32,000 nucleotides of DNA from Candidatus Saccharimonadota bacterium (GTDB lineage Bacteria; Patescibacteriota; Gracilibacteria; Absconditabacterales; Absconditicoccaceae): NCBI GenBank assembly GCA_965231145.1, contig OZ246420.1:510001-542000 (forward strand), in the 5' to 3' direction. Numbering within the stretch: the stretch's first letter is position 1; each line of letters opens with the position of its first letter. The position numbers and the translations under genes were made by a program. Positions 4,740 to 29,807 of this stretch are shown here, piece after piece. The notes beneath the pieces are model-generated. The model made no database searches, was not told the DNA's origin, and saw nothing but the letters and a program-made list of their open reading frames with translations.

Positions 4740-6728
4740 TTACCAACCTCCGGTAGCGCCACCGCCACCACTCGAGCCTCCACCAAAGCCACCGAAGCTA
4801 CTACTTCCTCCTGAACTAAATCCAGATCCACTACTATAAGTAGAACTATAAGAAGCTGCACTTGCTGCGGCACTAGCTCTTCTTCTGGTTGCCGCTCTTT
4901 CATCTTCAGCATCTCTTATATCTTTTTTTGCTCTTTCTATGGAGTCTTTAGCTTTTTTGATGACTTCTTGTAACGCCTTGTGCTTAGTAATAAGGTTTAG
5001 CATCGTTTCAGCTTCTTTAAGCATATTTGCCGCGGACTTTGCCATTTCTTTAGCTTTCCTGCCGACATCACTGTCCTTAATGATATGTAGTGCTTCTGCC
5101 GTAAGTTTAGTTGCACTTCCAATAAGAATTGGCAGATCAATAACAGCTTTTTCCCATAAAACATGCTGTGAACTTACTGTATCAAATAAAGCTATATTAC
5201 GCTTGAGCTGCTCTTCTATACTATCAAGTATTGCTTTGCTTTCAGGGAATTTCTGGTTATGCATATCATTAAGCTGCTCTGCTTGCTTTAACTTTGTTTC
5301 AATGCCGCTTATGCTTTGCTGAGCGCGAGTGAAATTTCCTTCTAAAGGAGACCATACTTCTTTTATCGCATTTGCTATGAGATATTTTAAAGCCTTGTCT
5401 GCCAATAGAATAATATCACGAAGAGGTTGTTGAGACTGTTTACGCAAAAGTGTTATCCTGCTGGCATTATCAATAGGTAACTGCAATTCAGCATCTATGC
5501 TTTGCTGCAAATTATCTATTTTCTGTTGAAGCATCTTGCTCGCATCATATAAATCTTTATGCTCTTCTATGTTTTCTAAAAGCGAATACTCTTGATCCAA
5601 TAGATTATATGCTTCCTCATCATCAGCAAAGATGGTATAAGTCTTTTGCAGTTCCAATAGTCTCTCTTTTAAAGCTGATAGCTTACCACATGTCTTTTCT
5701 TTCTCGTGTACCGCTTCAGTTTCATAGAACTTTATCTTCACTGGCAATGCTTCAACGCTCTTTTTATAAGCATTTTCTGCGTGTTCATAGCGACTAAATA
5801 AGCTCTCTATAAGTGCAATGGCTTTTTCAGGAGATGCATCAATATAGCCTTGTGCTGTTGCAAGCTCCCTTTCCATCTCCTCATATAATTTTCTTATCTC
5901 GGCTCGGTATTGGCTTGCTTCATTTTGTGCCCACGAAGGATATGTATCATGCTGCGCTTTTGCTGCAAGCATAGCCGGATCGATAGAGTTCAGTTTAGTA
6001 AGGAGAATGCTTGCTATTTCTTTTGCTTTCTTGACGGCAAGTTTATGCTCTTTTTTGCGTTTGATACTTCTATCAATGTGGTAGATAAGCAAGCATATGA
6101 GACCCAATATTATAATATATGACGCATATTGTCCTATTGTATACCACATTTCTCTTGTCTCTTGCGCCTCTTTTTCACGTTGCTTTGCTATCATCAATCG
6201 CTTTTCTTCCGATGGTATCTGAGTTTTTACATAGCTTATAAGAGTCTCTATACCATCTTTAAATCCAGCTTGAGGATCTCCATTTTTGAAATGGGAAGTA
6301 ATATTGTTATCGATGATATGTTGAGAGGTGACGTCTGTCAAATACTCTTCCATACCCTTCCCCGTTTCTATACGAACCTTCCTATCCTCCATAGCAAAAA
6401 GCAATAAGATGCCATTGTTAGAGCCTTTATGCCCTATACCCCACTTGTTGAATAAGTCGGTTGCATACTCTTCTATATTGCCTTCATAGTGGTCTTTAAG
6501 AGAAGGAATGGTCACCACTACTACTGCTATACTCGTACTCGCTTCCAGTGCGGTCAATTGCTGTTCATAATAAGCCTGAATGTCGTCACCTATAACATTG
6601 GCGGCATCGGTTATAGCTACAGGTGGATTCGGTTTTGGTAAGAGTCCGTCTTCGTCCTGAGCGATACTCAGCATACATCCTGATAAGAGGATTATCAGAG
6701 ATAAGATACTTTTAATTTTTTGTTTCAT
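4740..6728 (-). CDS. Lipoprotein with a TPM (YgcG-like) domain, one TM helix, a helical/coiled-coil region of about 400 aa and a Gly-rich tail (662 aa)
   Basis: Signal peptide plus lipobox (LLSGC). TPM-domain motifs are present (ITDAANVI..., NNGILLLFAMEDRKVRIETGKGMEEYLTD). The C-terminal GGFGGGSSGGGGATGGW is typical of YgcG-like proteins. Confidence 0.85.
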   Translation of the reverse strand: MKQKIKSILSLIILLSGCMLSIAQDEDGLLPKPNPPVAITDAANVIGDDIQAYYEQQLTALEASTSIAVVVVTIPSLKDHYEGNIEEYATDLFNKWGIGHKGSNNGILLLFAMEDRKVRIETGKGMEEYLTDVTSQHIIDNNITSHFKNGDPQAGFKDGIETLISYVKTQIPSEEKRLMIAKQREKEAQETREMWYTIGQYASYIIILGLICLLIYHIDRSIKRKKEHKLAVKKAKEIASILLTKLNSIDPAMLAAKAQHDTYPSWAQNEASQYRAEIRKLYEEMERELATAQGYIDASPEKAIALIESLFSRYEHAENAYKKSVEALPVKIKFYETEAVHEKEKTCGKLSALKERLLELQKTYTIFADDEEAYNLLDQEYSLLENIEEHKDLYDASKMLQQKIDNLQQSIDAELQLPIDNASRITLLRKQSQQPLRDIILLADKALKYLIANAIKEVWSPLEGNFTRAQQSISGIETKLKQAEQLNDMHNQKFPESKAILDSIEEQLKRNIALFDTVSSQHVLWEKAVIDLPILIGSATKLTAEALHIIKDSDVGRKAKEMAKSAANMLKEAETMLNLITKHKALQEVIKKAKDSIERAKKDIRDAEDERAATRRRASAAASAASYSSTYSSGSGFSSGGSSSFGGFGGGSSGGGGATGGW

Positions 6729-6835: not shown

Positions 6836-7207
6836 TTAATGGACACGCCTGAAGACGCCTACTACCTTTCCGAGGATCTCAAGACCAGCGTGAGGTTCAT
6901 TATCTTTTATGATTTTTAAGGTGAAATTTTCTGTCCTTTCTCTGCCAGCGAGAACCATGATGTCACCTTCCTTCCCGTGGAGCTCTCCCCTATCAACGAT
7001 CACAAAATCTCCCTGGACGATGCCTGCCTGGATCATGCTATCATCTTTAACTCTCAGGAGAAATGTCGATGCCGGATGCGGTACCAGAAAATGATTGATA
7101 TCTATCTCTTTTTGTGTGATATCGATTGCAGGAAAAGGATAACCGGCTGGGACAGAGGAAAATAATGGCATTTTAACTTTTTGTGTACGATCGATCGTTA
7201 TCCACAT
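6836..7207 (-). CDS. S24-family autopeptidase, UmuD-like (LexA C-terminal domain only, 123 aa)
   Basis: PLFSSVPAGYPFPAIDITQKEIDINHFLVPHPASTFLLRVKDDSMIQAGIVQGDFVIVDR shows the UmuD/LexA cleavage-site region and the Ser (DDSM) nucleophile motif. No HTH domain is present, because an in-frame TAA lies 6 codons upstream of the ATG. Confidence 0.8.
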   Translation of the reverse strand: MWITIDRTQKVKMPLFSSVPAGYPFPAIDITQKEIDINHFLVPHPASTFLLRVKDDSMIQAGIVQGDFVIVDRGELHGKEGDIMVLAGRERTENFTLKIIKDNEPHAGLEILGKVVGVFRRVH

Positions 7208-7284: not shown

Positions 7285-7824
7285 TTATCCAAAATAATGG
7301 TGGTATCTTTTTACTTGCTCCCAGTAGGTTTCCAAAAGTTCTTTATAAAGCGTATGATCTGCAAAATATTTGTTTCCATAGTAGATGAAAACTGGCGCTT
7401 TGAAAAAGAGATACGATTGTATCAGCGGAAGAGTGCAGTTATGACACTCAGAAAGATTGTGTATGAGATCAGAAATTTTCACTGCCCAGGCATCGGTATT
7501 TTCTTCTTTTATCATCCTTCCTATCATGCTCGACCGAGCTTTATACTTATCTTCTTGATGATACTGATTGTTATGGCTAACGAGGTCAACAAGATGTATC
7601 GTACGATCAGTGTATCAAAGTTCTTTTAGTTGCGCAAATGTATATCCCCCATCTTCGACTATATCATGAAGATAACCTGCATTTACTATCTCTTCAGAAA
7701 ATCCATGTCTCTCGAGAATTTCACCTACTGCAACAGAGTGCAAATAGACTGGAGTTTGTAGTCACTTACGCATTCAAGGGATCGCTTGTCTGAGTATCTC
7801 AATCGTCTGTTCTTTGGTTGGCAT
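7285..7824 (-). CDS. HD-domain protein of the HD_4 type, resembling a RelA/SpoT-like (p)ppGpp hydrolase (179 aa)
   Basis: Start MPTKEQTIEILRQAIP[G]MRK[G]LQTPVYLHSVAVGEILERHGFSEEIVNAGYLHDIVEDGGYTFAQLKEL[G]YTD... shows the H...HD...D metal motif. Three TGA-Gly codons join it to track ORF 7285..7527. Confidence 0.8.
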
Positions 7825-7876
7825 CTTCTACTAATTCTAAATTATAAATATTGAATTCTAGATTTCTTTTTTGAAT

Positions 7877-9229
7877 TTACTTATTAGTAATTAATGTGTG
7901 TTCGACATGTTTCTGTATTCCCTCATCTATCATTTTCTTCAGTTCAAACTCTCATCGCGGCAATGCATAACAATTATCATATGTGGCAATAGGCGTATCG
8001 TCAAAAGACTTTTGGACGAATGTACTTTCAGAGATGTTATTTCCCTCACAGTATTTTTTGACGAGTGCATCATCCCAAAATGTCATGTCTGCTCTGTTCT
8101 CTTTTACAAAGTTCATGACTTCTTCGATATGCGAAAGTTGAGGTACTCTGACTAATCTTGCGTGAGGGAAATATTTCTGAGCAAGCTGTTCATGGATATC
8201 ATTTTCTTTTACAGCAATCCTGAGTTTCTGATTTTGCTTCAGTGTTTCAAGATCTTGCTGTGCATAAGGCGAATCAGCGCGCATATACGCATATACATGA
8301 CTTTTCATGAGCGACTGTGAGAAAAACATTTCCAGTTTTCTTTCTGTGCTTGGCCACGTAGGACTACAAAAGATATCAATATATCCAAGATCGAGTCTCT
8401 GTGTCAGTGTTCCATAGCCGCTCTGCTCTACAAACTCAAGCTTGATGTTATTATCGTCTGCTATTTTACTGATGATCTCATAGAACTTTCCACTATACGT
8501 TCCATCATCATTTCTCATGAAATAATCGAAATATGGGACATATGAACATCTCATGACTCCTCTTTCCTTAATCACTTCCCATCTTGTTTTTTGTCTTTCT
8601 GCAAAAGAAAGATACATTTCATACGGAGCTTCTAAAAGAACAAAATCTATATACATCCTTATTTTGTTGTCGAAAACTCCTGCAATATAGTCTTCAAACA
8701 CACGCCAGTTTTTATGATACACATACGTTATTTTATCAACACCAAAGAAACCAGGCGCAAACTCTAAAAATGCTATCTCTGACAGGAGGTAATGAGTAGC
8801 CTGCTTTACATCTTCATCTGTATATGGTTTTCAGGAATTCTGCAGTACTTCTTTAGAAGTTTCGTTTGCAGATTTCTCAAATTCTTGGTTTGTATCATAT
8901 AACTGTTTCACTTCATTGAAATGCTTAAGATAATTTGGATTATCCTTCACTTCATTATCCCAATCTACAATAAGAATATTTTGATCCTGAATACCAAGAT
9001 CGTTGATGACGCGTCTAGTTCTATTTTTTAAGCCGTTACCATTGAGGATAGCTTTATTCCTCGCTTTGCCTGGGTTATATCCCATAGCAAGATACGTAGA
9101 AATTGCTGGCACATCAGCGACCATGATCGCTGCCTTTCCATATCTTTTGATGCATTCTCTGAGCAAAAAAGCTACTTCCTTATCTTTGAAGTAACTGTTT
9201 CCCGGAGACATACCGATGATTGAAAGCAT
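7877..9229 (-). CDS. tRNA-dependent cyclodipeptide synthase (CDPS, NYH-type) fused to a C-terminal type-2 periplasmic-binding-protein (SBP_bac_3-like) domain (450 aa)
   Basis: Track ORFs 8831..9229 and 7952..8722 share one frame and are joined by TGA 8831-8833. TGA 7952-7954 extends the gene to TAA 7877-7879. CDPS hallmarks are IIGMSPGNSYF (compare AlbC GISAGNSYF; catalytic Ser at 9206-9208), THYLLSEIAF (Y..E) and TYVYHKNW (Y-H). The C-terminal half carries SBP_bac_3 hallmarks (CSYVPYFDY..DGTYSGKFYEII, SPTWPSTERK, YALPR[G]EFELKKMIDEGI). Confidence 0.8.
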
Positions 9230-9326
9230 TATGTCATTTTATACATTAAATATGGATTATGGACCTTAGTATAAGCAGACAAAGAAGAACTGCAATACCA
9301 CTTGCTTTCATCTGCTATTTTTCTAT

Positions 9327-9746
9327 ATGTTAAGGCATTTATCCTTTATCGATTATTGCATGTCAACAACTATGCTGATTGCGAAATTACTCTTCCCTGT
9401 ATTTGCATTAGTTACTATCACGGCATTTATCCGCCCAAAGTTCTATAGAGAAATTGCGAAAGAGATCATGAACAGTCACGCTCTTATCTACATCGCAAGT
9501 TTCATGAACCTTATTGGAGGTACAGCTATCATCCTCTACCATAATACATGGACTCAAGACTGGTCAACGCTCATCACAGTTATCGGATGGTTGGCTGCTG
9601 TCAAAGGAGCTATATATATGGTTTTCCCAAAAGCAGCAATCGGCATGGTAACAAATGCGACTCAGTCAAAAGCATTTGTATACTTTATGGGTATCATTTC
9701 TGCTCTCTTTGCAGTTGCCCTCTACTCTCTTGGATACATGGCGTAG
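9327..9746 (+). CDS. Small integral membrane protein, function unknown (about 4 TM helices). The true start may be the internal ATG near 9360.
   Basis: Hydrophobic open frame ending at TAG 9744-9746, followed by a bidirectional terminator. Confidence 0.55.
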   Translation: MLRHLSFIDYCMSTTMLIAKLLFPVFALVTITAFIRPKFYREIAKEIMNSHALIYIASFMNLIGGTAIILYHNTWTQDWSTLITVIGWLAAVKGAIYMVFPKAAIGMVTNATQSKAFVYFMGIISALFAVALYSLGYMA

Positions 9747-9766
9747 GCTTATTTTACGCGAAAAAG

Positions 9767-9795
9767 AAAACTCTGCATCTCGCAGAGTTTTTTTA
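9767..9795. terminator. Bidirectional rho-independent terminator
   Basis: aactctgc-atctc-gcagagtt, flanked by an A-run and a T-run. Confidence 0.6.
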
Positions 9796-10221
9796 TTATC
9801 CTATTTTCTTCATAAGAGCCGCATATGCATAGTCTAAGAGTCAGTGTTTTTTCATGCTACAAATCTCTTCCCATGTAAACCATCCGGCATTTTGTGTTTC
9901 TTCAAGAGGTTCTGGTTCTCCCGATACCCGCTTTGTGAGGAAAAAAATTGTGAGCACCTGATGCTCTCCAAATGTACATGACATACTTCCAAGATAGTCC
10001 ATGTCGTCACTCACTACGACTCCCGTTTCTTCTTCGATTTCTCTCTTCAGTGTCTTTTCTATGATGCTTTCCGTTTGTTCATAATCGATCTTTCCACCAG
10101 GGATATTCCAGGCATCTGGATACATTCTATCGTCCGGGAGTCTTTGAATAAACAAAAATTTGTCTCATTTCTGGACCCATCCAACAATATTTGCTATGAA
10201 CATATTCTTCGCTGAAGGCAT
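9796..10221 (-). CDS. NUDIX hydrolase (141 aa)
   Basis: Nudix box GGKIDYEQTESIIEKTLKREIEEETGV. The N-terminus extends to ATG 10219-10221 through TGA (..WVQK[G]DKFLFIQR). The C-terminus extends through TGA 9841-9843 to TAA 9796-9798. Confidence 0.8.
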
Positions 10222-10293
10222 GGGATAAGTCTATGGAAATGGCCGTTGTTTTCAAGGGAGGCTACTAGCAGCCCTTATGAACTTTCATATACT

Positions 10294-10321
10294 AAAAAAG
10301 ACCCCAGCCAGGGTCCTTTTT
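10294..10321. terminator. Hairpin terminator downstream of the RT gene
   Basis: A-run, gaccc-cagcca-gggtc, T-run. Confidence 0.5.
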
Positions 10322-10389
10322 AGTGCTAGATATGAGTTCCCATACCCAGCTCCTGTATAATATATATTATTGATGTAATTACAAGTGCA

Positions 10390-12498
10390 TTAAAATTCGT
10401 ATTTTCTGCTTATTTCTCTTTCTATAACCATAGAAAGTTTCGAGATAACGATAGAAATTTCATTTTCAAAAATATCAATCTTCTGATAATTTTTATTATA
10501 TCAAATATAATGTAAGATTGCATGATTCTGTTCTTTATGATTCATTTTTGCTCTTAACTTTACAATATAGAGTAATAAATTTAAGTGTTCTCTTAATTCA
10601 GGAATTACTTTTATTATTTTTTCCTTTTCTCTACTCTTTCAACACATAATCAATCATCTTTGTCATTGGAGAACTACTGTAACATATTCATTATAAATAA
10701 GTGAATAAGCAATAGTAAGTAATCAATTAAATAAAGAATGAATATCTGCAATAAAGCTTTCATTATGTAAATAGAAAATCGGGAAAAGAGATTTAATGAC
10801 AATTAAATTATCAATTATTAGATCTAAAGAATACGCTACTGGCTTTTCTATTATTTGATCATTAGTTAAATTTTGTATTTTATTAGACAGAGACCTAAAT
10901 GCGTCTACATTATGCTGAAAAATAGTATTAAATTTTATGCCTATGATATTTTCTTTTACAGACTCTTTGCTTTGAGAAATCATATTATGTAATCATTTTA
11001 ATCTACTCAATTGTAAATAATTATCAAAAAACAACCTTTTCTTCTCGCTTAAAAATCATAATGCTATTGGATTATTGTTTTCTGTAATTGATTCAATCAA
11101 ATAATACTGCAAATCACTACGTGCACTCTGATTTTTTATTATTTTTAAATTTTTATAAAGCATAACTAAAGTATTATCCGTAATAATATATTTATATTTT
11201 CTCAAAAGGTTTATAAAATTATTCATTATACTATGATCATATTTGTTGATTAACTCCATAATCAAAGCTAAGAAATTAGTTTCAGATATAGTTATTAACG
11301 TAAGAACACTTTTTTCCTCTTCTTCTTTAGCAGAAGTTAATATATCATAAATAGATACTAAAAAATGATGGGTAACTAATAGCGAGGCACCCGCTATTGT
11401 ATAAAATCGTTTGAAGTATTGTTTTAAAAATCATTTTTCTTCTTGAATATTTTTTAATCATATGTCCATTAGATCTAAATATGCTTTAATATCAGAGACC
11501 TTATGCTTTTTTAGATTATTAATATTAATTTTGACTTTATTCTTATAATCAGACGTTTTTTTTGCATTTTCATATGATTTTTCTGCATTAGCAGTTAGCC
11601 CTCTTTCATTAAATTCTTTTTTTATCTTTGCAGCTTCTTCTTCTAAAAGAACCTTGTTATCTCCGAAAAAATAAAAATCGTCTACATAATATATCATGCT
11701 TATCTTATCATTAATAACATAGATACCATTTTTTAATTTTATATCTAGCAAGCAATCTGGATTAAATAATACTAACCAAGTAAATAAAGAAGCAATAAAA
11801 TCACAACCCAAGATAGACTGAGGAAGTCATACATTATTAAAGCCATTCACCTTAAAGAGAGCCATAGAAAGTTCATACATAAAATTATCTATTCAAAATT
11901 TCTCGTACTCTTCATAAGTTAAATATAATTTTAATATCTTATGCAATAATCCAATGAAGTGGTTATGATTTATACTATCATAATAAGATTTAATATCATA
12001 TTCCATTACTCGTGCTTTATTCTTTAATAGATTCTTTTTTATTTCCTCAAACTTAGTCCATAATCCTCGATAGGGAAGAATTTTTCAATTATTCTGAAAA
12101 TCCAATTGATGTCCATATGCAAAATACATATTTGAAATAAGCTTATTAGATTTTACATCATCATTTTTAAATATACAAGCTAATATATTGATAAGTTTCT
12201 CAATATATGTCTCAAAATAAATCACATTATAGAGGTTAGGAATTCTATATGTTCTTACATCAAGATTAATTTTAGATGAAGTTGTCTTACAAATGAAAGG
12301 TGTGTGGCAATTTTCAACAGCTAAATTAAAATGTTTTAATTCTTCATCGCTTATTCTAAGAATGTTTTCATTTAAATGAAAAAAGAACTTATCATAAAAT
12401 AAACTTCCTATTTTATTGGCTCTTGAGAAATATTCATTACTCTTAGATGTTATATATCTATTACATACTTTGAGTATTATGGATTTATCGACTGACAT
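10390..12498 (-). CDS. Stand-alone reverse transcriptase with a long helical C-terminal domain. Resembles Abi (AbiA/AbiK) or UG/DRT defence RTs (702 aa, code 25).
   Basis: Track ORFs 12085..12498, 11458..11811, 11056..11265 and 10723..10983 plus the gaps between them form one frame with 12 in-frame TGAs, ending at TAA 10390-10392. RT motifs appear in canonical order: VRTYRIPNL (motif 1), MEYDIKSYYDSINH (motif A), NV[G]LPQSILGCDFIASLF (motif B), IYYVDDFYFFG (motif C, YVDD = 11677-11688), ERGLTANAEKS (motifs D/E). Confidence 0.85.
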
Positions 12499-13981: not shown

Positions 13982-15322
13982 ATGCAAGAAATAGCAGTCT
14001 GAACAAGTGATATATGAGGAGGAGAGCCTATTTTCTATCCTGATGAACCGCTAAAGAAAAAACTCCTCCGCAATGGATTTTGGCTCTATTTTTTCTCATT
14101 TATCGTTGCACCAACAGGATACATTATAAAAGTAATCGCGTCTCGCCAGCTTTCGGTCGAAGATATCGGTATCTTCTATTCGGTTCTTGGTATCATCGGA
14201 CTGCTTTCTACGTACAATGATCTCTGACTCACAGAGGCGCTGCAGTACTTCCTGCCGCACTATTTCATCGACAAAGACTATGTGAAGGCAAAAACGATGG
14301 TTGTCTTCACACTGATCTCGCAAATCATCAGCAGCGTACTTATCATTGCCGTGCTGCTGTTTATCGCACCGTGGCTTGCAGCGCACTATTTTCATACACC
14401 GCTTGCTCTTCCACTCCTCCAGCTCTTCTGTATCTATTTTCTCATCATCAATACATTTCAAATGATACAGTCGCTCTTCATCGCGACCCAGCAGGTGAAG
14501 CGATCCCAGGGGATTGAGTGAATCAGGATGTGGTCTATAGTCCTGCTGGTGGTAATTGGTAGTTTTATGGACATCTTTTCACTCAATAGCTTCATGCTTT
14601 ACCGGCTTGCCGGCTTGCTCATTTCTACCATAGTGGGAGCGATAGCGATGAGGAAACATTTTGGATGGCTGTTCAAATACAAAGTCAACCTCTCGAAAGA
14701 TCTCTTAAAAAAGTGGTTCGGTTATGCTATACGGGTTATCATAGGGACAAATGCGACATTATTACTCACACAGATAGATCAACAATTTGCGCTTTACTTC
14801 TTTGGTGCTGAAAGCGCAGGTTACCGAACAAATTATCTGACGCTGTTCAATAGTATCACGATCATCTGTACTCCGCTTATTGCCTATTTGTTTCCATTGC
14901 TCAATGAGCTTCATAAGAAAAACGAACAAGCAAAGATAAAGCTCTTAAATCGTATGCTCTACATAGGATTTATTTCTATCGGACTAGTGATCGGGCTTAT
15001 CGCATATTTCTGGGGACCAGAGGCAGCCGTCTTACTTTTCGGGGAAAAATTCAGATCATCAGGAGAACTTTTCCAGGTCAGTGCACCATTTCTCTGGCTC
15101 GTACCTATCATGGGTATCCAGTTTCAAAATCTTGCAAGTCATGGAAAAGTAAAACAAAGAGTCATCTTATTACTTATGGGGGTTGCAGTGAATTGTACTG
15201 TGAGCATACTTTGCATGCGTACCATGGGCATCTCAGGTATCGTCTATGGTATGGCTGCAGGACAGGCAGCGGCCATCCTTGGTTCGCTTATCATCGAAAG
15301 AAAATATCGTACTAGATCATAA
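13982..15322 (+). CDS. Wzx/RfbX-type polysaccharide (oligosaccharide-lipid) flippase (446 aa)
   Basis: ATG 13982 follows an AGAGG Shine-Dalgarno sequence. The protein is multi-TM and carries ...LLSTYNDL[G]LTEALQYFLP. Track ORFs 14282..14521 and 14528..15322 share the frame and are joined by TGA 14519-14521. Confidence 0.8.
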
Positions 15323-15327
15323 AACAT

Positions 15328-16635
15328 ATGCTGAAATATATCATGACATGAGATAAGACGCAAGGTCTGAGATGGGAAAACCGATCGCTCTTTTTGCGTA
15401 CTGAAACAAGTCGTCTTGAGAGGAACTCTACGGCAAGTGTGCTCATGATCTGTTATAACCATACGGAGCAGTTCTTCAGGTTGCTTGATAAGATCGACAA
15501 AGAGTCATGACGCGATCAGTTTACTATCACTATCGTACAAAACTCTGATAAGGAAGAAGCCTTACGTATATTTGAACAAAAGATTGCTTCATATACCAAC
15601 ATAACTGTCCTCTACCCGGTACACAATCTCGGCTCTGCATGAGGTTATGCACTCTGACAAGAATACTTGCTACATCATGGCTATGAACATCTTATCATGG
15701 TAGAAGACGATATAGAACTTCTTGCAGATGATACGATCACTGCTATGATACAGACAGCCAAAAGGGATGAAAAACATGTTGTTTTCATCAACCATCCGAT
15801 CAATGCTGGTGGTGACCATTCTCGATATGTACAGCTTGCATGCTATCCTCTTTCGCTTATTCGTCATGCTGGGATCATAGATCCAAGATATTTCTTCAGA
15901 GCAGAAGATCTTGAGCGGGCAAAAAGACTCGAAAAACATATTGCGGATAGTCATTATCATAAGGTCATTATAGAAAAAGACTATTATCATCCTTACATTA
16001 AGGCTATGAATAATAGTGGTTCATGGATCTATTTTTCTATCAGAAACCAGTTATGGAGTTTTTGCTCTCATCATGTGAGCTATGTACAGCTGATCAGAGC
16101 GATCTTTTTTTACCTCGCATTTGGTTTGTTTGTGTTCCTCAGAACAAGGAAAAAAGAAATTATGCTATGCGTTGTGCGGGCGCTGTATGATGGCATACGC
16201 TGATATAGATCGTTTGGATATAATGTAAAAATTATTGAAAAATGTATGCACTACAAAAAGCTTTTTCTCTCCGATCTATGATGGAGCATAGAACAGATAA
16301 ATACGCTTCCTAGCTATATTAATACTCACCATCTTCTTGCTCGTACGACTCTCTCTGTACAGGACAGAGAGGTGCTTTGACGCTACAGATGAGATCTTCG
16401 TGTTAGCGGATGATTTCAGCCTGTTCGAGGATGGTATATGGTCGCACTCCAGCGTCTCTTTATCATAGAACATCTCAGACTCGATAAAGATATGTGCTCC
16501 GGAAAGCTGCTTCGTCAGAGCTTTGCTTCAAGCGTACTGAACTTATGATTGTTTTTGCCAGCAGCTTTGTTATGATGAATAGCAATTATCGTCTACACAG
16601 TGCTGTTTTTACCGACTAGCTATCTCAGGAAATAA
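15328..16635 (+). CDS. GT2-family glycosyltransferase with a C-terminal membrane-associated extension (435 aa; the start may be internal, near 15439-15445)
   Basis: VLMICYNHTEQ..., NLGSA[G]GYAL[G]Q and MVEDD (DxD) motifs. The frame continues through TGA 16201-16203 and further TGAs to TAA 16633-16635. Confidence 0.7.
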
Positions 16636-17429
16636 TGAGAAACATCAAGCAGTTTCTGACGCCACAAACGCTCTCTTATCTGTTTTATTTGCCGAGAGTT
16701 TTTTTGGTACTGAAAAATCCATTATGATTTTTGAAATCATATATTAGCGGAACTCGCAGTATAGAAAATATAGAAATGCGCCATGGACTTGTCTATGAGA
16801 TCAGCAACTTTGATGACCTTGGTGTATTCTATGAAATATTTATCAAGAAAGAATACGGCGCTATCCCCAAAGGGAAGACTACTATCATTGATATAGGCGC
16901 AAACAATGGTCTTTTCATGCTCTACTGTAAATCACAAAATCCTGAAAGCACGATCCATTGCTATGAACCAGTGCCACAGTGTGCATCACATATCCAGCAT
17001 ATCGTACATCGTAACAAACTCCAGCATGTACATATCCATGAGGCTGCTGTTTCGGATAAAGTATGACTCCATCGTTTATATCTTGGTAGTCAAACTGTTG
17101 CGGCGTCGCTCTATGAGGATATCGCATCATGACATGAAAGCATAGATATCAAGACAACAACACTCGAAGCGATATTCCATGACCAGAGCATCGCAAGCGT
17201 TGATTTCCTTAAGGTAGACTGCGAAGGTGGAGAGTATGACATTTTTTATTCTACCAGTGCAGAGACACTTCAGCGCTGTAAGTACATGGCAATCGAATAT
17301 CATGACATCGATGAAACAAAAAATGGAAAGGAGCTCTACAAACATATAAAAAAACTTCTTCCACAAAGAAAAGTTATCTATCATCATCATCCTGCCCATC
17401 CACATAACGGCTTTATCACGGTAAAATAA
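16635..17429 (+). CDS. FkbM-family methyltransferase (264 aa)
   Basis: IIDIGANNGLFMLY...CYEPVP...FLKVDCEGGEYDIF. The start ATG overlaps the upstream stop (ATAATGA). There are 3 in-frame TGA-Gly codons. Confidence 0.8.
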
Positions 17430-17438
17430 TACCTTTCT

Positions 17439-18374
17439 ATGACAGCAATTTCTTTAGTTATCCCAATGTACAATGAAGAAAGGTATATTTGAAGATGCCT
17501 CGATTCGCTGATTGCACAAACAAGAAAAGATTTTGAAGTGATTCTCATTGACGATGGAAGCTCCGATAAGAGCATTGCTATAGCATCTGCGTATAAAGAA
17601 AAAATGGATCTTACTATCCTGGAGCAACAGCATGGATGACCAGGGAAAGCAAGAAACTGGTGAGCGACACTAGCGAAGTGATCTATACTTGTCTTTGTTG
17701 ATGCAGATATGGCGTTCGATGAAGCATATCTTGAAGAGCTTGTGAAGCCTATTGAATCATGAGAAGAAAAATGAACTGCTCATGGTCGAGAGTATATTGC
17801 AAATGAAGAACATCCTATCGCCAGAGCATATGGTATCATAAGACTTGCATATAACGAGAAAGAACCAAGGGGTGGCGTGTTCAGAGCGATCAAGAAAGAT
17901 ATTTTTCTCAGCAATGCGTGATACGACAATAGTCGCTACGCATTTGAAGATGATATGGCGCAAAAGATTGGTCAGGCTCTGTATGTTCCTACCGCTATTT
18001 GCTACCACAATAACCCTGAAGACTTTCACGAGATCTTTGCACACGAAGTCTGGATTGGAGAGTCTCTTATCGCTAAATGAATGTTAGTCGAGTATCTCAA
18101 AAAATATAGCCTCTATTTGATCACATTTGTCTTTGGTGTTATTGTGGTGAGTTTATGGGCTACAGCTATAGGTATTTCGATAGGAACGCTTTTGTTAGGT
18201 ATTGTATGTATGCTTGTTTTCCTTATAGTGCTTGTCAGCATAAAAAGAGCTCTCCTCGAGAGATATGTTTCGCATCTTCTCTATGTTCCACTTGTGCTTG
18301 TCACGAGATGAGCCGGATATATACGATGAATGGGACGTTATTTACTTACTCATAGATCGCACAAATGAAATTAA
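17439..18374 (+). CDS. GT2-family glycosyltransferase with C-terminal TM helices (311 aa)
   Basis: ISLVIPMYNEERYI[G]RCLDSL, ILIDDGSSDKS, QQHG[G]PGKARNW[G]A (TGA 17637-17639), FVDADM. It includes track ORF 18081..18311 in the same frame. Confidence 0.85.
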
Positions 18375-18901
18375 ATATTGGAGCAGGAACAGACATTCAT
18401 CCATGATATATCAATATGGATATTGTACAGCTGCCAGGGATTGATGTTATACACAACCTTGAAGAGGTACCATATCCGTTTGAGGACAATACATTTGATG
18501 AAATCTTTTGTTCTCATGTCCTGGAACATGTCTTCGATCTGCAAAAGACGATGAGAGAACTCGTGAGGATTTGTAAAAATGGAGCACTCATAAAAGTAAA
18601 GGTGCCGTATGTTTCAAATCCAAATGGCTGGGCTGATCCGACACATCATAGGCTCTTTAGTCTCAATAGTTTCTATTATTTCTCAAAGGAATGCTTCTAC
18701 AACGCGAACGATAAAGGTATGGATATCCAGGTTCTTAAAAAAAGGATTCATTTCTTTTCAAATGCGCAATACCTTAAATCTGACATTATTAATATCCTTC
18801 CTGATTTCTTCGTCAATCTGATCCCCAAAGTCTATGAAAGATTTTTCGCGTTCTGGTTTCCTTCAACAGAAATTCACTTTCTTCTCAAAGTAAACAAATA
18901 A
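18365..18901 (+). CDS. Class I SAM-dependent methyltransferase (178 aa)
   Basis: MKLNIGAGTDIHP[G]YINMDIV...PFEDNTFDEIFCSHVLEHV. It overlaps the upstream gene by 10 nt. Confidence 0.75.
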
Positions 18902-18931
18902 TCTCATGATTTATACGGTGTTGGTAATCAT

Positions 18932-19966
18932 ATGAAAATAGTAAATCCATCTCATCCACTCTACCTCAAGGCTTGTAAAAGAGAGTCTCAGTTTTGGAGT
19001 GGCGATACGGCATTGGAGTATGATCATATTCCCCAGAGAGTACAAGAGTATGAAAACATGAAAAGAACTGGGAATAAAGAAACTACTGATCTTTCATTTC
19101 TGCAGTCTCTTGGTACATTCCCACGTGGTCTTTCTATTGGTTCAGGATGAGGTAAATATGAGCTCAACCTTTTACAAAAAGGTATCGTAGAACATTTCGT
19201 ATTCATCGACATCAGCGAAAGTGCCCTCGTTATGTTAAAGCAAAATGCTGAAAAGCTTTGAGTTTCTGACAAAATAGAAACTCGTGTACAGGATTTCAAT
19301 TTTCTCTCGCTTCCTGAAAACAGCTATGATTTTGTCTGCTGCCAGAACATGCTGCATCATATTATCAACTTGGAAGAAGCCATAGATAGTATCAATCGTT
19401 CTCTTACGTCTACGGGTATCTTTGTCATCGATGAAGCTATCAGTGAAAACAAGATGTATCGATCGGATGCAAAGATGTCTTTTCTAGAAACGATACAGTC
19501 GCTACTCAGGGAGAAAGGAATTTCTACGAAGCCATATATTAGAACAAATCCCAAAGTTCTGACCAATACATGTCCTTTTGAGTGCGTAAGAAGCGCAGAT
19601 CTCTATGGTATTATTGATCACTATTTTCATGATACGGCGATCAAGCACATAGCATATAGTCCCCTCTTTTCTTTTTGGAATGGGCTCACCGACGATCTGA
19701 GTGACATGTATTTTGACATCCTTGAGGAGTTTGATACATTTGCCTCATCGCATCATTATGTACATCCAAATAGACTGTTCGGTATCTACAAAAAATCACA
19801 TATTCCACTGCTGCCTTCTACACCGTGGACCGAAAAAGAGATACAGGAATATATTGGCGTGACCGCGATAAATGAACGTAAACTCATGGAATTTTCACAA
19901 AAACTCCATAAAAAGTTTCCTGGAGTCTATAATTTTTTCAAACGTCTCTACTTTAAAATCAGATAA
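18932..19966 (+). CDS. Class I SAM-dependent methyltransferase (344 aa)
   Basis: Track ORFs 18932..19150 and 19349..19966 share one frame and are joined by TGAs. Motif I is GLSIGSG[G]GKYE. Motif CCQNMLHHI is also present. Confidence 0.75.
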
Positions 19967-19968
19967 CC

Positions 19969-20757
19969 ATGCACCCAGAGGTTTCCATCATCATCCTCAA
20001 CTACAACACCCCAGAACTAACGACTGCCTGCGTGCAGTCGGTCATTGCTCATACACACGATATTTCTTATGAGATTGTACTGATAGACAACGCTTCAAAG
20101 TCTGAAAGCAAAATATATTTTGATACACATCTTTCGAATATCCCTGAGTTACATATCCACTATAGTACTACCAATCGTGGCTTTGGAGGTGGAAATAACC
20201 TTGGATACAACCATAGCAAAGGTGAGTATCTTTTCTTCCTCAATAGCGATACGATCATCTATGAAAATTCTATAAAGATCCTTGCTGATGAGTATAAAAA
20301 GCATGAAGAACAAGTAAAAACAGGCTTTCTCGCACCAAGACTCTACTATGATCCTGCAAAGACTACCAAGCAAATATTTGGCACGAAAGTACCAACGTTT
20401 TGGGACGTTATGGTCTATAATATTCCAAAATTAAAAAAGATCTGGAAGAAAAAATATGATAGATTTCGTTATGCAGACCGAGATAGAGAAACTGATAAGG
20501 AAATAGGCAATGCATGAGGGCCTGTGTTTTTCTGTTCAAGAGCTTGCTTTGAGGATATCGGTAGATTTGATGAAAGATTTTTTCTCTATATGGAAGAGTT
20601 TGATACGGCTATGAGATTATATAAAAAATGATACCATAACTTTTATACAGCCAAGACTAGCATCGTTCATCTTGAAGACCAGTCTCCAAAAATAAAGCGA
20701 AAAAAGCTCAAGATCTCTTTAGAGAGTATGCTGAAGTTCTTCTGGAAGTATTTATAA
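19969..20757 (+). CDS. GT2-family glycosyltransferase (262 aa)
   Basis: VSIIILNYNTPELT, VLIDNASKS, TNRGFGGGNNLG, FLNSDT, then through TGA 20515-20517: [G]GPVFFCSRACFEDIGRFDERFFLYMEEFDTAMRLYKK[G]Y. Stop is TAA 20755-20757. Confidence 0.85.
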
Positions 20758-20761
20758 AAAA

Positions 20762-20791
20762 AAGCTTATTATCATAAGGGATAATAAGCTT
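20762..20791. terminator. 11-bp stem hairpin, probably a bidirectional terminator
   Basis: aagcttattat-N8-ataataagctt. An A8 run precedes it, which gives a strong T-run on the minus strand. The plus-strand tail is a weaker TTTCTTG. Confidence 0.5.
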
Positions 20792-20857
20792 TCTTGAGAA
20801 TGTGGGCTAATGTTAAGCGCCTACTGCAACTCACTCATCATAGTCGATTTCTTCTCT

Positions 20858-20927
20858 GTACTTCCATAAATCAATTCAGAAGCTCTGTTTCATAGTCTGG
20901 CGCTGCTCTCAAGCAGATTTTTTTATA
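20858..20927 (+). repeat. 3'-region repeat element, copy 1 (GTACTTCC ... CATAGTCTGGCG, then a short hairpin and T7 run)
   Basis: GTACTTCC at 20858-20865 and CATAGTCTGGCG at 20891-20902, followed by a 4-bp hairpin ctgc/gcag and a T7 run. The same two blocks with similar spacing occur on the opposite strand at 21961-22002. Confidence 0.35.
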
Positions 20928-20991
20928 CTAATAAATAATACTCTCATGACAATATTTCATAAATAAAATAGCTAAATATTATCAAAATATT

Positions 20992-21849
20992 TTAAAGCGA
21001 TGCAGTATCCTTAATTTTCAGCATGCGATTGGAAATAGCAAGATATGCTTTGAGGATTCTTTGTGATTTCGTTGCCATTATCATCCTCCAGACAATATTA
21101 GAAAGTGTTTTGACTCCTAATATCATAATTAAAGTGGCAACAGAATATCCTTCCTTACGATAAATAATATATTGCCGTCTTGCATTTGTAAAAATACTTC
21201 TACTCTTAAAGTTTTTGACCTCATGAATTCTGTAAATAAATACAGGTTGAGGTATCATGCGAATAGTGTACTTTCTCGTAAAACTTAAATGATAGTCCCA
21301 ATCAGCAAAAAGCCCAACTTTTTCATCAAAAAGAATGTCTTTATCAAAACGAAATAATGTTCATCAAAATCCAAGCGCATTATTATTCTTTAAGAAATCT
21401 TGATGAGATAGGTTATATGGATCCTTATATTTTATAGGCTTTTCTGAGATAAATTCGCCACGTGCATTGATATAATATCTCATTCCGCCTACTGCTCCTA
21501 TATCTTGTGAAGCATGTAGCTCACTATACAGTGCATACAAGCTATTATTATCATAAAATTTATCGTCATCCGAAAGGAAAATAATATATTTTCAGCGAGC
21601 TTTCTGTAAGCATTTATTTCGATTTGGCACCATTCATATATTTCTTTCGTTTTTATGGTATTTTATGTACGGATATCTTTTTATATAATCTTCTAACACT
21701 TCAGATATACTCATATCTTTGCTGTTATCTGTGATAATAATTTCGATATTTTTTTTATCAATACCTTGTTGCCTCAGGCAACTTTCTAAGCATTCAATAA
21801 TATACTCTTTACGATCGCACGTGGGGATAAGTATAGAAATTTCGTACAT
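20992..21849 (-). CDS. GT2-family glycosyltransferase (285 aa)
   Basis: ISILIPTCDRKEYI, IIITDNSKD, ERNI[G]MVPNRNKCLQKAR[G]KYIIFLSDDD. Track ORFs 21634..21849 and 20992..21258 share the frame. Stop is TAA 20992-20994. Confidence 0.85.
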
Positions 21850-21933
21850 CTATTCTTCGTTAAGGATAAATATATCATTAACTTGAAGAATGCACCGAAA
21901 CTACGCGCCGCAAGCGGACGTTTTTTTATAAAC

Positions 21934-22075
21934 AAAAAAGGCGACTAACTATCCTCAAGTCGCCAGACTATGTCACCCAGATGCCCCCAATGAAGGAAGT
22001 ACTAAGAAGAGAATGAGCTAATCGCCTTCTCTTGCATTAAGGGTATAAATATATCTGATTATAACATAGTCTGGC
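21934..22075 (-). repeat. 3'-region repeat element, copy 2, with a 12-bp perfect inverted repeat and a terminator
   Basis: The minus strand reads ...GTACTTCC (22002-21995)...CATAGTCTGGCG (21972-21961), then hairpin ggcgac/gtcgcc (21940-21964) and a T6 run. gccagactatgt (21962-21973) pairs with acatagtctggc (22064-22075). Confidence 0.4.
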
Positions 22076-22144
22076 ATATTTAGTATACAAAAAAGAACTA
22101 CCCGTGCAAGGTAATTCTTTTGCTGTATATCAGATAGCTAGCGC

Positions 22145-23002: not shown

Positions 23003-23006
23003 GATC

Positions 23007-24059: not shown

Positions 24060-24063
24060 CTTA

Positions 24064-28842: not shown

Positions 28843-28865
28843 GAGCATAATATATGATAAAAATT

Positions 28866-29789: not shown

Positions 29790-29807
29790 TAGTACACTTC
29801 ACCTTAA

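What the first reader, a model, noticed from the sequence alone, without database searches (positions are those of the whole stretch)
7877..9229. Cyclodipeptide synthase fused in-frame to a periplasmic-binding-protein (SBP_bac_3-like) domain
Seen in sequence:
- One continuous code-25 ORF of 450 aa.
- The N-terminal ~200-230 aa have the CDPS catalytic signature: GMSPGNSYF (Ser 9206-9208 and Asn), Y-x3-E in THYLLSEIAF, and Y-H in TYVYHKNW. This is the NYH subfamily pattern, very close to AlbC 'GISAGNSYF'.
- It runs without a stop or frameshift into a ~220-aa domain with amino-acid-binding PBP type-2 hallmarks (YVPYFDY..DG.YSG, SPTWPSTERK, YALPR[G]EFELKKMIDEGI).
- No signal peptide precedes the PBP domain, so it would be cytoplasmic.
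- No classical tailoring enzyme (CDO, P450) is adjacent. An HD_4 (ppGpp-hydrolase-like) gene follows 52 nt downstream on the same strand.

Established knowledge: CDPSs hijack aminoacyl-tRNAs to make cyclodipeptides. SBP_bac_3 domains bind amino acids or small ligands and are also used as sensor modules.

Inference: this is a ligand-gated, substrate-sensing or product-binding CDPS. I do not recognise this architecture as described, and a CDPS in a reduced CPR genome is itself unexpected.
Basis: partly seen in the sequence, partly recalled or inferred. Interest (0 to 1): 0.85.

Follow-up and report, generated by a model that had tools for sequence, protein, structure and literature searches.

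The report
Cyclodipeptide synthase fused to binding-protein domain
The gene is real and encodes a cyclic-dipeptide-making enzyme joined to a small-molecule-binding domain, but the fusion was already listed in a 2018 survey and occurs in hundreds of uncultured bacteria, so the only open question is what the extra domain does.

Summary
Window 7877-9229 (-) is one 450-codon ORF with two in-frame TGAs. Residues 1-205 are an NYH-type cyclodipeptide synthase (CDPS; Pfam 102 bits, cut-off 27) and residues ~221-445 are an SBP_bac_3 domain (46 bits, cut-off 26). TGA=Gly is confirmed. The genome also reads CGA/CGG as Trp, the published Absconditabacteria code, so residue 425 is probably Trp, not Arg.

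It is not a chimera. The DNA is 100% identical in another assembly. More than 100 full-length homologues (40-83% identity, about 40 species-level genomes) share the architecture, all catalytic residues, an invariant fusion-specific junction motif and a nearly invariant SBP pocket. AlphaFold2 packs the two domains rigidly (pTM 0.78 and 0.90).

The novelty claims fail. Gondry et al. [quoted passage not shown]

Function is untested. The SBP half comes from an unnamed secreted SBP subfamily. It keeps the Arg/acid amino-acid clamp plus an aromatic cage, lacks the cyclohexadienyl dehydratase catalytic Glu, is acidic, and has no conserved partner gene.

Best reading: an active CDPS with a cytoplasmic small-molecule-binding accessory domain, probably regulatory. 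It is a new member of a catalogued but uncharacterised family. Interest is moderate.

The parts
7877..9229 (-). Complete CDPS-SBP fusion gene: 450 codons plus TAA, read with TGA=Gly and CGA/CGG=Trp
   Evidence: The DNA is 100% identical over 3399 bp in an independent Logan assembly (L079). More than 100 full-length homologues exist.
8615..9229 (-). Cyclodipeptide synthase domain (residues 1-205), NYH subfamily
   Evidence: PF16715 102.4 bits and TIGR04539 122.5 bits. AlbC 3oqv matches at E=4e-9. S8, N11, Y100, Y147, E151, Y171 and H172 align with AlbC S37, N40, Y128, Y178, E182, Y202 and H203, and are invariant or nearly so in 115 family members.
9206..9208 (-). Codon of the catalytic Ser8 (AlbC Ser37 equivalent)
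   Evidence: Ser is present in 115/115 family members.
8714..8791 (-). Stretch holding Y147 (8789-8791), E151 (8777-8779), Y171 (8717-8719) and H172 (8714-8716)
   Evidence: all four are invariant in the family. The 26 stand-alone sister CDPSs also keep them.
8612..8638 (-). Fusion-specific junction motif L198-L-E200-x-P202-Y-E204-T/M-Y206
   Evidence: L198, E200 and E204 are invariant and P202 and T205 are at least 90% conserved in fusions. The motif is absent from the stand-alone sister CDPSs, which end near residue 200.
7895..8569 (-). SBP_bac_3 (type II periplasmic-binding-protein fold) domain, residues ~221-445, cytoplasmic
   Evidence: PF00497 46.3 bits. Foldseek to closed amino-acid-binding proteins gives TM-score (target-normalised, TMt) about 0.82. 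phmmer to AncCDT-1 gives E=4e-9.
8072..8416 (-). Stretch holding the conserved putative ligand-pocket residues: Y272 (8414-8416), W292 (8354-8356), R297 (8339-8341), E342 (8204-8206), D344 (8198-8200), Q364 (8138-8140), D386 (8072-8074)
   Evidence: Y272, R297, D344 and Q364 are invariant. R297 aligns with GlnBP R75, and D386 aligns with GlnBP D157 and CDT D170. The pocket signature barely varies across 111 members.
8831..8833 (-). In-frame TGA, codon 133, read as Gly (inside the CDPS domain)
   Evidence: Gly is the commonest residue in this family column, and the 'W' entries there come from table-4 gene calls.
7952..7957 (-). CGA (codon 425, probably Trp) followed by TGA (codon 426, Gly) in the SBP domain
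   Evidence: The CGA/CGG-to-Trp reassignment is published for Absconditabacteria (PMC8629427).

Best explanation
The gene encodes a cytoplasmic two-domain enzyme.

The N-terminal 205 residues are a complete NYH-type cyclodipeptide synthase. It should take two aminoacyl-tRNAs, form an aminoacyl-Ser8 intermediate and release a cyclodipeptide. This follows from family membership and intact catalytic residues; activity and product are not shown.

The C-terminal ~225 residues come from a secreted amino-acid-type solute-binding protein that lost its signal peptide. AlphaFold2 packs it rigidly against the synthase through a conserved junction motif.

I infer that this domain still binds one particular small zwitterionic or cationic metabolite, such as an amino acid or an amino-acid-like compound. 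I further infer that it acts as a built-in sensor or accessory that tunes how much charged tRNA is diverted into cyclodipeptide.

The protein works as a stand-alone gene. It has no dedicated tailoring or transporter partners.
For: Shown:
- Both domains score above curated cut-offs.
- Catalytic and NYH residues are invariant in 115/115 family members.
- Basic residues K59, K68 and R70 on the AlbC tRNA-binding helix are conserved.
- More than 100 full-length fusions share 40-83% identity, in about 40 species-level genomes.
- The two halves co-diverge (r=0.85; mean pairwise identity 58.6% and 45.1%).
- The junction motif is invariant in fusions and absent from the 200-222 aa stand-alone sister CDPSs.
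- Two AlphaFold2 models have pLDDT 94-95 and pTM 0.78 and 0.90.
- The SBP half superposes on closed, ligand-bound amino-acid-binding proteins at TM-score (target-normalised, TMt) about 0.82, against about 0.53 for apo forms.
- The carboxylate-clamp Arg (R297) is invariant. The ammonium-clamp acid (D386) is E or D in 108/111. Aromatic Y272 is invariant, W292 is conserved, and D344 and Q364 are invariant.
- The SBP pocket is nearly constant while three of the seven CDPS P2 (second substrate-specificity pocket) positions vary.
- No neighbouring gene is conserved across 40 loci.

Inferred: ligand identity, any allostery, and the product.
Against: - No biochemical data exist for any family member. 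Gondry et al. 2018 listed two members but did not test them.
- I had no access to model coordinates or predicted aligned error. I therefore cannot say whether the SBP cleft faces the CDPS active site or the tRNA path.
- The usual carboxylate-binding G-T-T/S-G-T loop is replaced by E342-N-D344 and T70 by W292. The ligand may therefore not be a standard amino acid.
- The nearest characterised CDPS pocket (VGMAWFFF, CDPS 79) was inactive in E. coli.
- Other C-terminal CDPS fusions that have been described are tailoring enzymes, which favours a catalytic reading.
Confidence: 0.5

Rival explanations
1. The SBP-fold domain is a tailoring enzyme. As cyclohexadienyl dehydratase evolved from a binding protein, this domain would chemically modify the cyclodipeptide made by the N-terminal half. 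The fusion would then be a two-step mini-pathway.
For: - The other C-terminal CDPS fusions described are putative tailoring domains (methyltransferase, P450).
- Top sequence and structure hits include the CDT lineage.
- E342, D344 and Q364 are invariant polar or acidic residues in the cleft.
- No separate tailoring gene is conserved nearby.
Against: - The CDT general acid Glu173 aligns with a conserved Leu (L389).
- The same pocket signature occurs in 116 secreted free-standing SBP representatives with signal peptides, which are far more likely to be binders than enzymes.
- The AncCDT-1 hit is a non-catalytic, consensus-like binder.
Confidence: 0.15
2. The SBP domain binds the cyclodipeptide product. 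It would capture or sequester the product for hand-off to an exporter, for feedback inhibition or for self-protection.
For: - The predicted packing of the two domains is rigid.
- One family member has an EamA exporter gene immediately downstream.
- The aromatic cage could stack on a diketopiperazine ring.
Against: - Cyclodipeptides lack the free alpha-amino and alpha-carboxylate groups that the conserved R297 and D/E386 clamp recognises.
- The SBP pocket stays constant while the CDPS P2 pocket varies.
- No exporter is conserved nearby.
- The ancestral secreted SBPs share the pocket without any CDPS.
Confidence: 0.15
3. The SBP domain no longer binds a ligand. It serves as a structural, solubility or oligomerisation scaffold for an otherwise minimal (~200 aa) CDPS.
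For: - The sister CDPSs are unusually short at 200-222 aa.
- The junction is rigid and conserved.
- The SBP half diverges faster than the CDPS half (45% against 59% mean pairwise identity).
Against: - The invariant residues in the SBP half sit at canonical cleft positions (Y272, R297, D344, Q364), not only at the interface.
- The stand-alone sister CDPSs keep all catalytic residues without the domain.
Confidence: 0.15
4. Artefact: the ORF is an assembly chimera or two genes (CDPS plus SBP) wrongly joined by reading through TGA.
For: Public standard-code gene calls on the same DNA split it into a 132-aa CDPS fragment and a 234-aa SBP fragment.
Against: - Neither TGA lies at the domain junction. 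They are at codons 133 and 426, and the junction is near residue 205-220.
- The CDPS profile match spans the first TGA.
- TGA=Gly is demonstrated.
- Standard-code organisms encode the same fusion without any TGA, for example P0073 on an 808-kb contig.
- The DNA is identical in another assembly.
Confidence: 0.02

Closest known systems
[quoted passage not shown] Kerfeldbacteria OGY85379.1 and Ca. Moranbacteria OGI43181.1 (Gondry et al. 2018, PMC5816076, supplementary sheet 'NYH CDPSs')
   Same: - Same family and architecture. The Kerfeldbacteria protein is hit P0103, with 41% identity at about 96% coverage.
- NYH subfamily.
- Near-identical P1 (first substrate-specificity pocket): VGLAWFLY and IGFAWFLY against IGMAWFLY here.
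- Similar P2 (second pocket): TAVGKWT against TEVNKWR here.
   Different: The window protein comes from an Absconditabacteria-type recoded genome (TGA=Gly, CGA/CGG=Trp). It differs at P2 positions 155, 159 and 207 (AlbC numbering). Neither published entry was expressed or assayed, so no function is known for either.
AlbC (Streptomyces noursei cyclo(Phe-Leu) synthase, PDB 3oqv), the archetypal NYH CDPS
   Same: - Catalytic Ser, Tyr, Glu and Tyr are conserved, as is the N/Y/H signature.
- The GxSxGNSYF motif is shared.
- A basic helix aligns with AlbC's tRNA-binding helix.
   Different: - AlbC is a single-domain 239-aa enzyme encoded next to a cyclodipeptide oxidase.
- The enzyme here starts directly at strand beta1, with no N-terminal extension.
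- Its P1 pocket has bulkier residues (W, F and Y in place of L, L and L).
- It carries a 245-aa C-terminal SBP domain and has no tailoring neighbours.
ParcuCDPS (Parcubacteria bacterium RAAC4_OD1_1; makes cyclo(His-Pro) and cyclo(His-Glu); crystal structure solved)
   Same: A CDPS from a reduced CPR genome. It shows that CPR CDPSs are active enzymes.
   Different: It belongs to the XYP subfamily, is single-domain, and has different pockets.
CDPS 71: NYH CDPS fused to a C-terminal P450 (Gondry et al. 2018)
   Same: An N-terminal ~240-aa NYH CDPS with a second C-terminal domain. The isolated CDPS part was active and made cyclo(Trp-Tyr).
   Different: There the partner is a recognisable tailoring oxidase. 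Here it is a binding-protein fold with no known catalytic residues.
Polar-amino-acid-type SBPs and derivatives: AncCDT-1 (5t0w), Pu1068/SAR11_1068 (5kkw), EhuB (2q88), P. aeruginosa cyclohexadienyl dehydratase (5hpq)
   Same: - Same two-lobed type II fold (TM-score, target-normalised, TMt 0.7-0.84).
- The conserved Arg and Asp/Glu alpha-amino-acid clamp is retained.
- The nearest free-standing relatives hit Pu1068 and EhuB best.
   Different: - No signal peptide and no ABC permease or ATPase neighbours.
- The G-T-T loop is replaced by E-N-D, and T70 by Trp.
- It lacks the CDT general acid Glu173.
- It reaches no curated NCBIfam equivalog cut-off (EhuB 31 bits against a cut-off of 191).

Membership tests
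Cyclodipeptide synthase (PF16715 / TIGR04539) | Profile score above the curated cut-off | tested here: met
   PF16715 scores 102.4 bits against a cut-off of 27. TIGR04539 scores 122.5 bits against 45.
Cyclodipeptide synthase (PF16715 / TIGR04539) | Catalytic Ser37 plus Tyr128, Tyr178, Glu182 and Tyr202 (AlbC numbering) | tested here: met
   The equivalents are S8, Y100, Y147, E151 and Y171. They are invariant in 115 family members, except Y100, which is 111 Y and 4 F.
Cyclodipeptide synthase (PF16715 / TIGR04539) | Basic patch on helix alpha4 for tRNA binding | tested here: inconclusive
   K59 is invariant, K68 and R70 are at least 90% conserved, and R72 and R73 are present. They align with AlbC's Arg/Lys-rich helix. 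No electrostatic or docking analysis was possible.
Cyclodipeptide synthase (PF16715 / TIGR04539) | Rossmann-like fold related to class Ic aminoacyl-tRNA synthetases | tested here: inconclusive
   The AlphaFold2 secondary structure fits an alternating beta/alpha fold with pLDDT above 90. PDB sequence hits include AlbC, YvmC, Rv2275 and BtCDPS. The Foldseek top-50 list held only SBP-half matches, so the CDPS fold was not scored separately.
Cyclodipeptide synthase (PF16715 / TIGR04539) | Makes a cyclodipeptide from two aminoacyl-tRNAs | not testable with these tools
   No family member has been assayed.
NYH subfamily of CDPS | Asn40, Tyr202 and His203 signature | tested here: met
   N11, Y171 and H172 are present in 115/115 members. 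Gondry et al. place family members in their 'NYH CDPSs' sheet.
SBP_bac_3 (PF00497), polar-amino-acid-type solute-binding proteins of ABC transporters | Profile score above the cut-off and a two-lobed type II fold | tested here: met
   46.3 bits against a cut-off of 26.4. Foldseek gives TM-score (target-normalised, TMt) up to 0.84 to amino-acid SBPs.
SBP_bac_3 (PF00497), polar-amino-acid-type solute-binding proteins of ABC transporters | Arg (carboxylate) and Asp (ammonium) clamp for an alpha-amino acid | tested here: met
   R297 is invariant. D386 is E in 91 and D in 17 of 111. The mapping onto GlnBP used a sequence recalled from memory. The mapping onto AncCDT-1 comes from the HMMER output.
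SBP_bac_3 (PF00497), polar-amino-acid-type solute-binding proteins of ABC transporters | Signal peptide or lipoprotein anchor and an extracytoplasmic location | tested here: not met
   The domain starts at about residue 221 of a protein whose N-terminus is strand beta1 of a cytoplasmic enzyme. By contrast, 108 of 116 free-standing relatives have an N-terminal hydrophobic segment.
SBP_bac_3 (PF00497), polar-amino-acid-type solute-binding proteins of ABC transporters | Encoded with ABC permease and ATPase genes | tested here: not met
   None occurs in the window neighbourhood, in five sampled homologue loci, or as a conserved neighbour across 40 loci.
Cyclohexadienyl dehydratase (PBP-fold enzyme) | Desolvated general acid Glu173 | tested here: not met
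   Position 173 aligns with L389, which is L, T or I across the family.
EhuB ectoine-binding protein (TIGR02995) | Equivalog score of at least 190.9 bits | tested here: not met
   The window protein scores 31.3 bits. The nearest free-standing relatives score 40-72 bits.

The most novel reading that the evidence does not exclude
The recruited binding-protein domain is an allosteric metabolite sensor, for example for a host-derived amino acid or an amino-acid-like zwitterion. It would switch the synthase on or off. This would be the first ligand-regulated cyclodipeptide synthase, linking nutrient status to the diversion of charged tRNAs in host-dependent bacteria such as CPR and Obscuribacterales. 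A less likely variant is that the PBP fold has become a new kind of diketopiperazine-tailoring enzyme.
Probability: 0.3. Interest if true: 0.7.

Novelty: new member of a known kind. Interest (0 to 1): 0.45.

Why it matters
CDPSs are normally treated as unregulated single-domain enzymes whose products are diversified by neighbouring tailoring genes. This family differs. It has more than 250 sequence clusters across CPR lineages, Obscuribacterales and some other phyla. It carries no tailoring neighbours, and it has a permanently attached binding-protein domain with a nearly invariant pocket.

If that domain senses a metabolite, it would show how small-genome, amino-acid-dependent bacteria control a reaction that consumes charged tRNAs. 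It would also give enzymologists a naturally switchable CDPS.

For this window specifically, the practical points are about annotation. Standard-code gene calls split the gene into two fragments. A plain code-25 translation still misreads one residue.

Tried and rejected
- Assembly chimera, frameshift or two genes. Rejected: identical DNA occurs in another assembly, standard-code homologues encode the same fusion, and the TGAs are not at the junction.
- Operon link to the HD_4 (ppGpp-hydrolase-like) gene. Rejected: in the closest relative it lies about 5 kb away with seven or more genes between, and no neighbour family recurs in more than 3 of 40 loci.
- Split versions (CDPS gene next to an SBP gene) in the 26 CDPS-only sister loci. 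None found within 5 kb on either side.
- Cyclohexadienyl-dehydratase-type catalysis. Rejected: the Glu173 equivalent is Leu.
- SBP half as an extra tRNA-binding module. Disfavoured: median net charge is -8.
- Product prediction from the P1/P2 pockets. No characterised CDPS shares the xGxAWF[LM]Y pocket. The nearest, CDPS 79, was inactive. I only infer a smaller P1 pocket than AlbC's.
I used the 83%-identical P0001 and the standard-code P0073 instead.
- Inter-domain interface and cleft orientation could not be analysed, because coordinates and predicted aligned error are not returned.
- Literature searches for the fusion under 'solute-binding', CPR taxon names and two recent reviews found nothing beyond Gondry et al. 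2018.
- Within-window test of CGA=Trp on housekeeping genes was uninformative because there were too few codons. Orthologue codon pairing settled it.
Full report
**1. The observation**

Window 7877-9229 (minus strand) is a single frame of 450 sense codons ending in TAA. It has two in-frame TGAs, at codons 133 and 426. An in-frame TAA lies 12 nt upstream of the ATG, so the start is fixed and the protein begins directly at the first beta-strand of the enzyme.

These are GMSPGNSYF with Ser8 at 9206-9208, Y147-x3-E151 and Y171-H172. The HD_4 gene starts 52 nt downstream.

**2. Genetic code**

Under the standard code only 55% of the window lies in ORFs of at least 100 aa. With TGA as a sense codon, long ORFs with up to 12 in-frame TGAs tile the window, and all end in TAA or TAG.

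Two independent tests show TGA=Gly:
- About 30 of the closest homologues, called with table 4 in public data, show 'W' at up to 9 of 12 Gly-dominated alignment columns.
- Between orthologues of the window and a related contig (L001), TGA pairs with GGN 41 times.

In the same comparison, CGA pairs with TGG 11 times and CGG with TGG 8 times. Neither ever pairs with AGA, CGT or CGC. In three relatives, CGA sits at family-invariant Trp columns. This is the UGA=Gly plus CGA/CGG=Trp code already published for Absconditabacteria (Shulgina & Eddy 2021, PMC8629427).

The consequence for this gene is small. Its only CGA, codon 425, is probably Trp rather than Arg.

**3. Domains**

- The recoded protein scores 102.4 bits on Pfam CDPS (cut-off 27) over residues 4-180. 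It scores 122.5 bits on TIGR04539 (cut-off 45).
- It scores 46.3 bits on SBP_bac_3 (cut-off 26.4).
- The CDPS match spans the first TGA.
- Against solved structures, the N-half matches AlbC (3oqv, E=4e-9) and other CDPSs. The C-half matches AncCDT-1 and amino-acid-binding proteins.

**4. Not a chimera, and not unique**

An independent Logan assembly of run ERR4405439 is 100% identical to window 7331-10729.

The large protein search returned 255 relatives. More than 100 of them are full-length proteins of 430-500 aa carrying both Pfam domains, at 40-83% identity. Some sit on contigs of 0.5-0.8 Mb from standard-code organisms.

A scan of one genome per GTDB species found the complete fusion in about 40 genomes:
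- Mostly CPR/Patescibacteria: Absconditabacterales, Paceibacterota, Kerfeld-, Moran-, Berkel-, Nomura- and Uhrbacteria, and bins labelled Saccharibacteria.
- Also at least seven Obscuribacterales/Melainabacteria bins.
- Also bins labelled Bryobacterales (a 706-kb contig), Alpha-, Gamma- and Deltaproteobacteria, Bdellovibrionota and one Woesearchaeota.

Public standard-code gene calls on this same DNA split the gene into a 132-aa CDPS fragment and a 234-aa SBP fragment. The source annotation therefore hides the fusion.

**5. Family anatomy**

- Catalytic residues: across 115 members, the AlbC equivalents S37, N40, Y178, E182, Y202 and H203 are invariant. Y128 is 111 Y and 4 F.
- Specificity pockets: P1 (first substrate pocket) is nearly fixed as [IV]G[LM]AWF[LM]Y, and IGMAWFLY here. 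P2 (second pocket) varies at three of seven positions, and is TEVNKWR here.
- Sister clade: 26 stand-alone CDPSs of 200-222 aa from other CPR lineages, DPANN archaea, Dependentiae and Bdellovibrionales. They keep all catalytic residues, end at about residue 200 of the fusion, and have no SBP gene within 5 kb.
- Junction: immediately after that point the fusions carry the motif L198-L-E200-x-P-Y-E204-T-Y. L198, E200 and E204 are invariant in fusions, and the motif is absent from the stand-alone forms.
- Co-inheritance: the two halves diverge in step (r=0.85). Mean pairwise identity is 58.6% for the CDPS half and 45.1% for the SBP half.
- Structure: AlphaFold2 models of the 83%-identical P0001 and the standard-code P0073 have pLDDT 94.3 and 95.4, and pTM 0.78 and 0.90. 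For two equal-sized domains this implies a defined mutual orientation. That last step is an inference, because I could not inspect coordinates.

**6. The SBP half**

By Foldseek it superposes on closed, ligand-bound amino-acid-binding proteins at TM-score (target-normalised, TMt) about 0.8. The matches are AncCDT-1, a Trp-binding SBP and holo ArgBP. Apo forms score about 0.53.

Alignment to AncCDT-1 (HMMER output) and to GlnBP (sequence recalled from memory) gives this mapping:

| Reference position | Residue here | Conservation in the family |
|---|---|---|
| Carboxylate-clamp Arg (GlnBP R75) | R297 | invariant |
| Ammonium-clamp Asp (GlnBP D157, CDT D170) | D386 | E 91, D 17 of 111 |
| Stacking aromatic (GlnBP F50) | Y272 | invariant |
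| GlnBP T70 | W292 | conserved |
| G-T-T / S-G-T loop | E342-N-D344 | D344 invariant |

Q364 is also invariant.

The cyclohexadienyl dehydratase general acid Glu173 (Clifton et al., bioRxiv 10.1101/157495) aligns with Leu389, so the domain is not a CDT. The half is acidic, with a median net charge of -8, which argues against an extra tRNA-binding role.

An exhaustive HMMER search with residues 215-425 found 745 representatives at E<=1e-3. After the fusions come about 116 proteins of 255-325 aa, and 108 of them have an N-terminal hydrophobic signal or anchor. They share the same pocket signature:
- aromatic cage residues Y, Y/W, W/Y/F and W
- the Arg
- D/E at position 342
- E/D at position 386

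These free-standing relatives reach no curated NCBIfam cut-off. EhuB and LAO-type models give their best but sub-threshold hits. Their best solved relative is Pu1068 (5kkw), whose physiological ligand is unknown.

So the domain was recruited from a secreted SBP subfamily with no assigned ligand, and it kept that subfamily's pocket.

**7. Context**

In the window the gene is flanked by:
- downstream, HD_4, an S24 peptidase and a TPM-domain protein
- upstream, a divergent small membrane protein, a NUDIX protein, a reverse-transcriptase-like ORF and malic enzyme

In the closest relative (80% identity), HD_4 and S24 lie about 5 kb away. More distant members have unrelated neighbours. Clustering the three genes on each side of 40 loci found no family shared by more than three closely related loci.

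The gene therefore acts alone. The HD_4 adjacency is incidental.

**8. Literature**

Gondry et al. [quoted passage not shown] Their supplementary table lists Ca. Kerfeldbacteria OGY85379.1 (my hit P0103) and Ca. Moranbacteria OGI43181.1. [quoted passage not shown] No activity and no predicted product are given.

A CPR CDPS, ParcuCDPS, is already characterised. I found no paper that characterises the fusion.

**9. Interpretation**

Shown: this is a real, conserved, co-evolving two-domain protein with an intact NYH CDPS active site and a binding-protein domain with a conserved cleft.

Inferred:
- The N-half makes a cyclodipeptide. The bulky W, F and Y residues in P1 suggest a smaller first substrate than AlbC's Phe.
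- The C-half binds one constant small zwitterionic or cationic metabolite and modulates or serves the synthase.

I favour a sensor or accessory role (about 0.4) over tailoring (0.15), product capture (0.15) and pure scaffold (0.15). The reasons are these:
- The conserved clamp recognises free amino and carboxylate groups, which diketopiperazines lack.
- The SBP pocket does not co-vary with the P2 pocket.
- The same pocket exists in secreted binders.

None of this is tested.

**10. Verdict**

This is a new, recoded Absconditabacterial member of a catalogued but uncharacterised fusion family. Interest is moderate, because the family is large, clearly integrated and directly testable, but it is neither new nor surprising to CDPS specialists.

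Noticed in passing
Whole window; for example codon 425 of the target gene (7955-7957). 27 CGA and 11 CGG codons occur in 28 genes.: Besides TGA=Gly, CGA and CGG behave as Trp codons. They pair with TGG 11 and 8 times between window and L001 orthologues, and never with other Arg codons. This matches the published Absconditabacteria code, so plain table-25 translations of this window misread about 38 residues.
   Followed up: yes
Window 7952-9229; public calls P0123 (132 aa) and P0125 (234 aa) on a 1.1-Mb NCBI contig: Standard-code gene calling on the same DNA splits the fusion into a CDPS fragment and an SBP fragment. The source genome's annotation therefore does not show the fusion.
   Followed up: yes
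Window 10390-12498 (-) and 9796-10221 (-): A 702-aa ORF with 12 in-frame TGAs has only weak reverse-transcriptase similarity (RVT_1 26.8 bits, below cut-off; PADLOC Drt5/UG-type RT models at E~1e-6). Next to it is a NUDIX protein that hits the PADLOC candidate family PDC-S07 (E=4e-14). This may be a defence-type RT locus.
   Followed up: partly
Loci L049-L073: The closest stand-alone relatives of the CDPS half are unusually short (200-222 aa). They occur in CPR, DPANN archaea (Woese-, Micr- and Nanoarchaeota bins), Dependentiae and Bdellovibrionales. All are host-dependent or predatory lineages, which suggests spread by gene transfer among such organisms.
   Followed up: partly
Proteins P0137-P0272: A large secreted SBP_bac_3 subfamily (about 116 representatives at 50% identity) has a conserved aromatic cage (Y, Y/W, W/Y/F, W) plus Arg and acidic residues. 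It reaches no curated NCBIfam cut-off. Its closest solved relative is Pu1068, whose ligand is unknown.
   Followed up: partly
Window 7285-7824 (-) and 6836-7207 (-); L001 14185-14718 and 15646-16191: A small stand-alone HD_4 protein (179 aa, RelA/SpoT hydrolase-like, 3 TGAs) and an S24 LexA/UmuD-like peptidase are syntenic with a relative. There they are separated from the CDPS gene by about 5 kb holding HAD, DUF218, GDSL, phosphatase and HigB/HTH genes, which indicates an insertion or deletion between the two genomes.
   Followed up: partly
Window 4740-6728 (-): A 662-aa protein has a signal or anchor sequence, an N-terminal TPM-phosphatase domain (135 bits), a long coiled-coil-like region and a Gly/Ser-rich C-terminal tail. 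It has no in-frame TGA.
   Followed up: no
Window 13982-30884: A long cell-envelope glycosylation cluster: a Polysacc_synt flippase-like protein, several GT2, GT4 and GT9 glycosyltransferases, methyltransferases and an RfaE-like kinase. It is partly syntenic with L001.
   Followed up: no
L074 4950-5546 (Ca. Kerfeldbacteria): A ~199-aa ORF matches both the CDPS and the SBP family profiles. It looks like an internally deleted remnant of the fusion.
   Followed up: no
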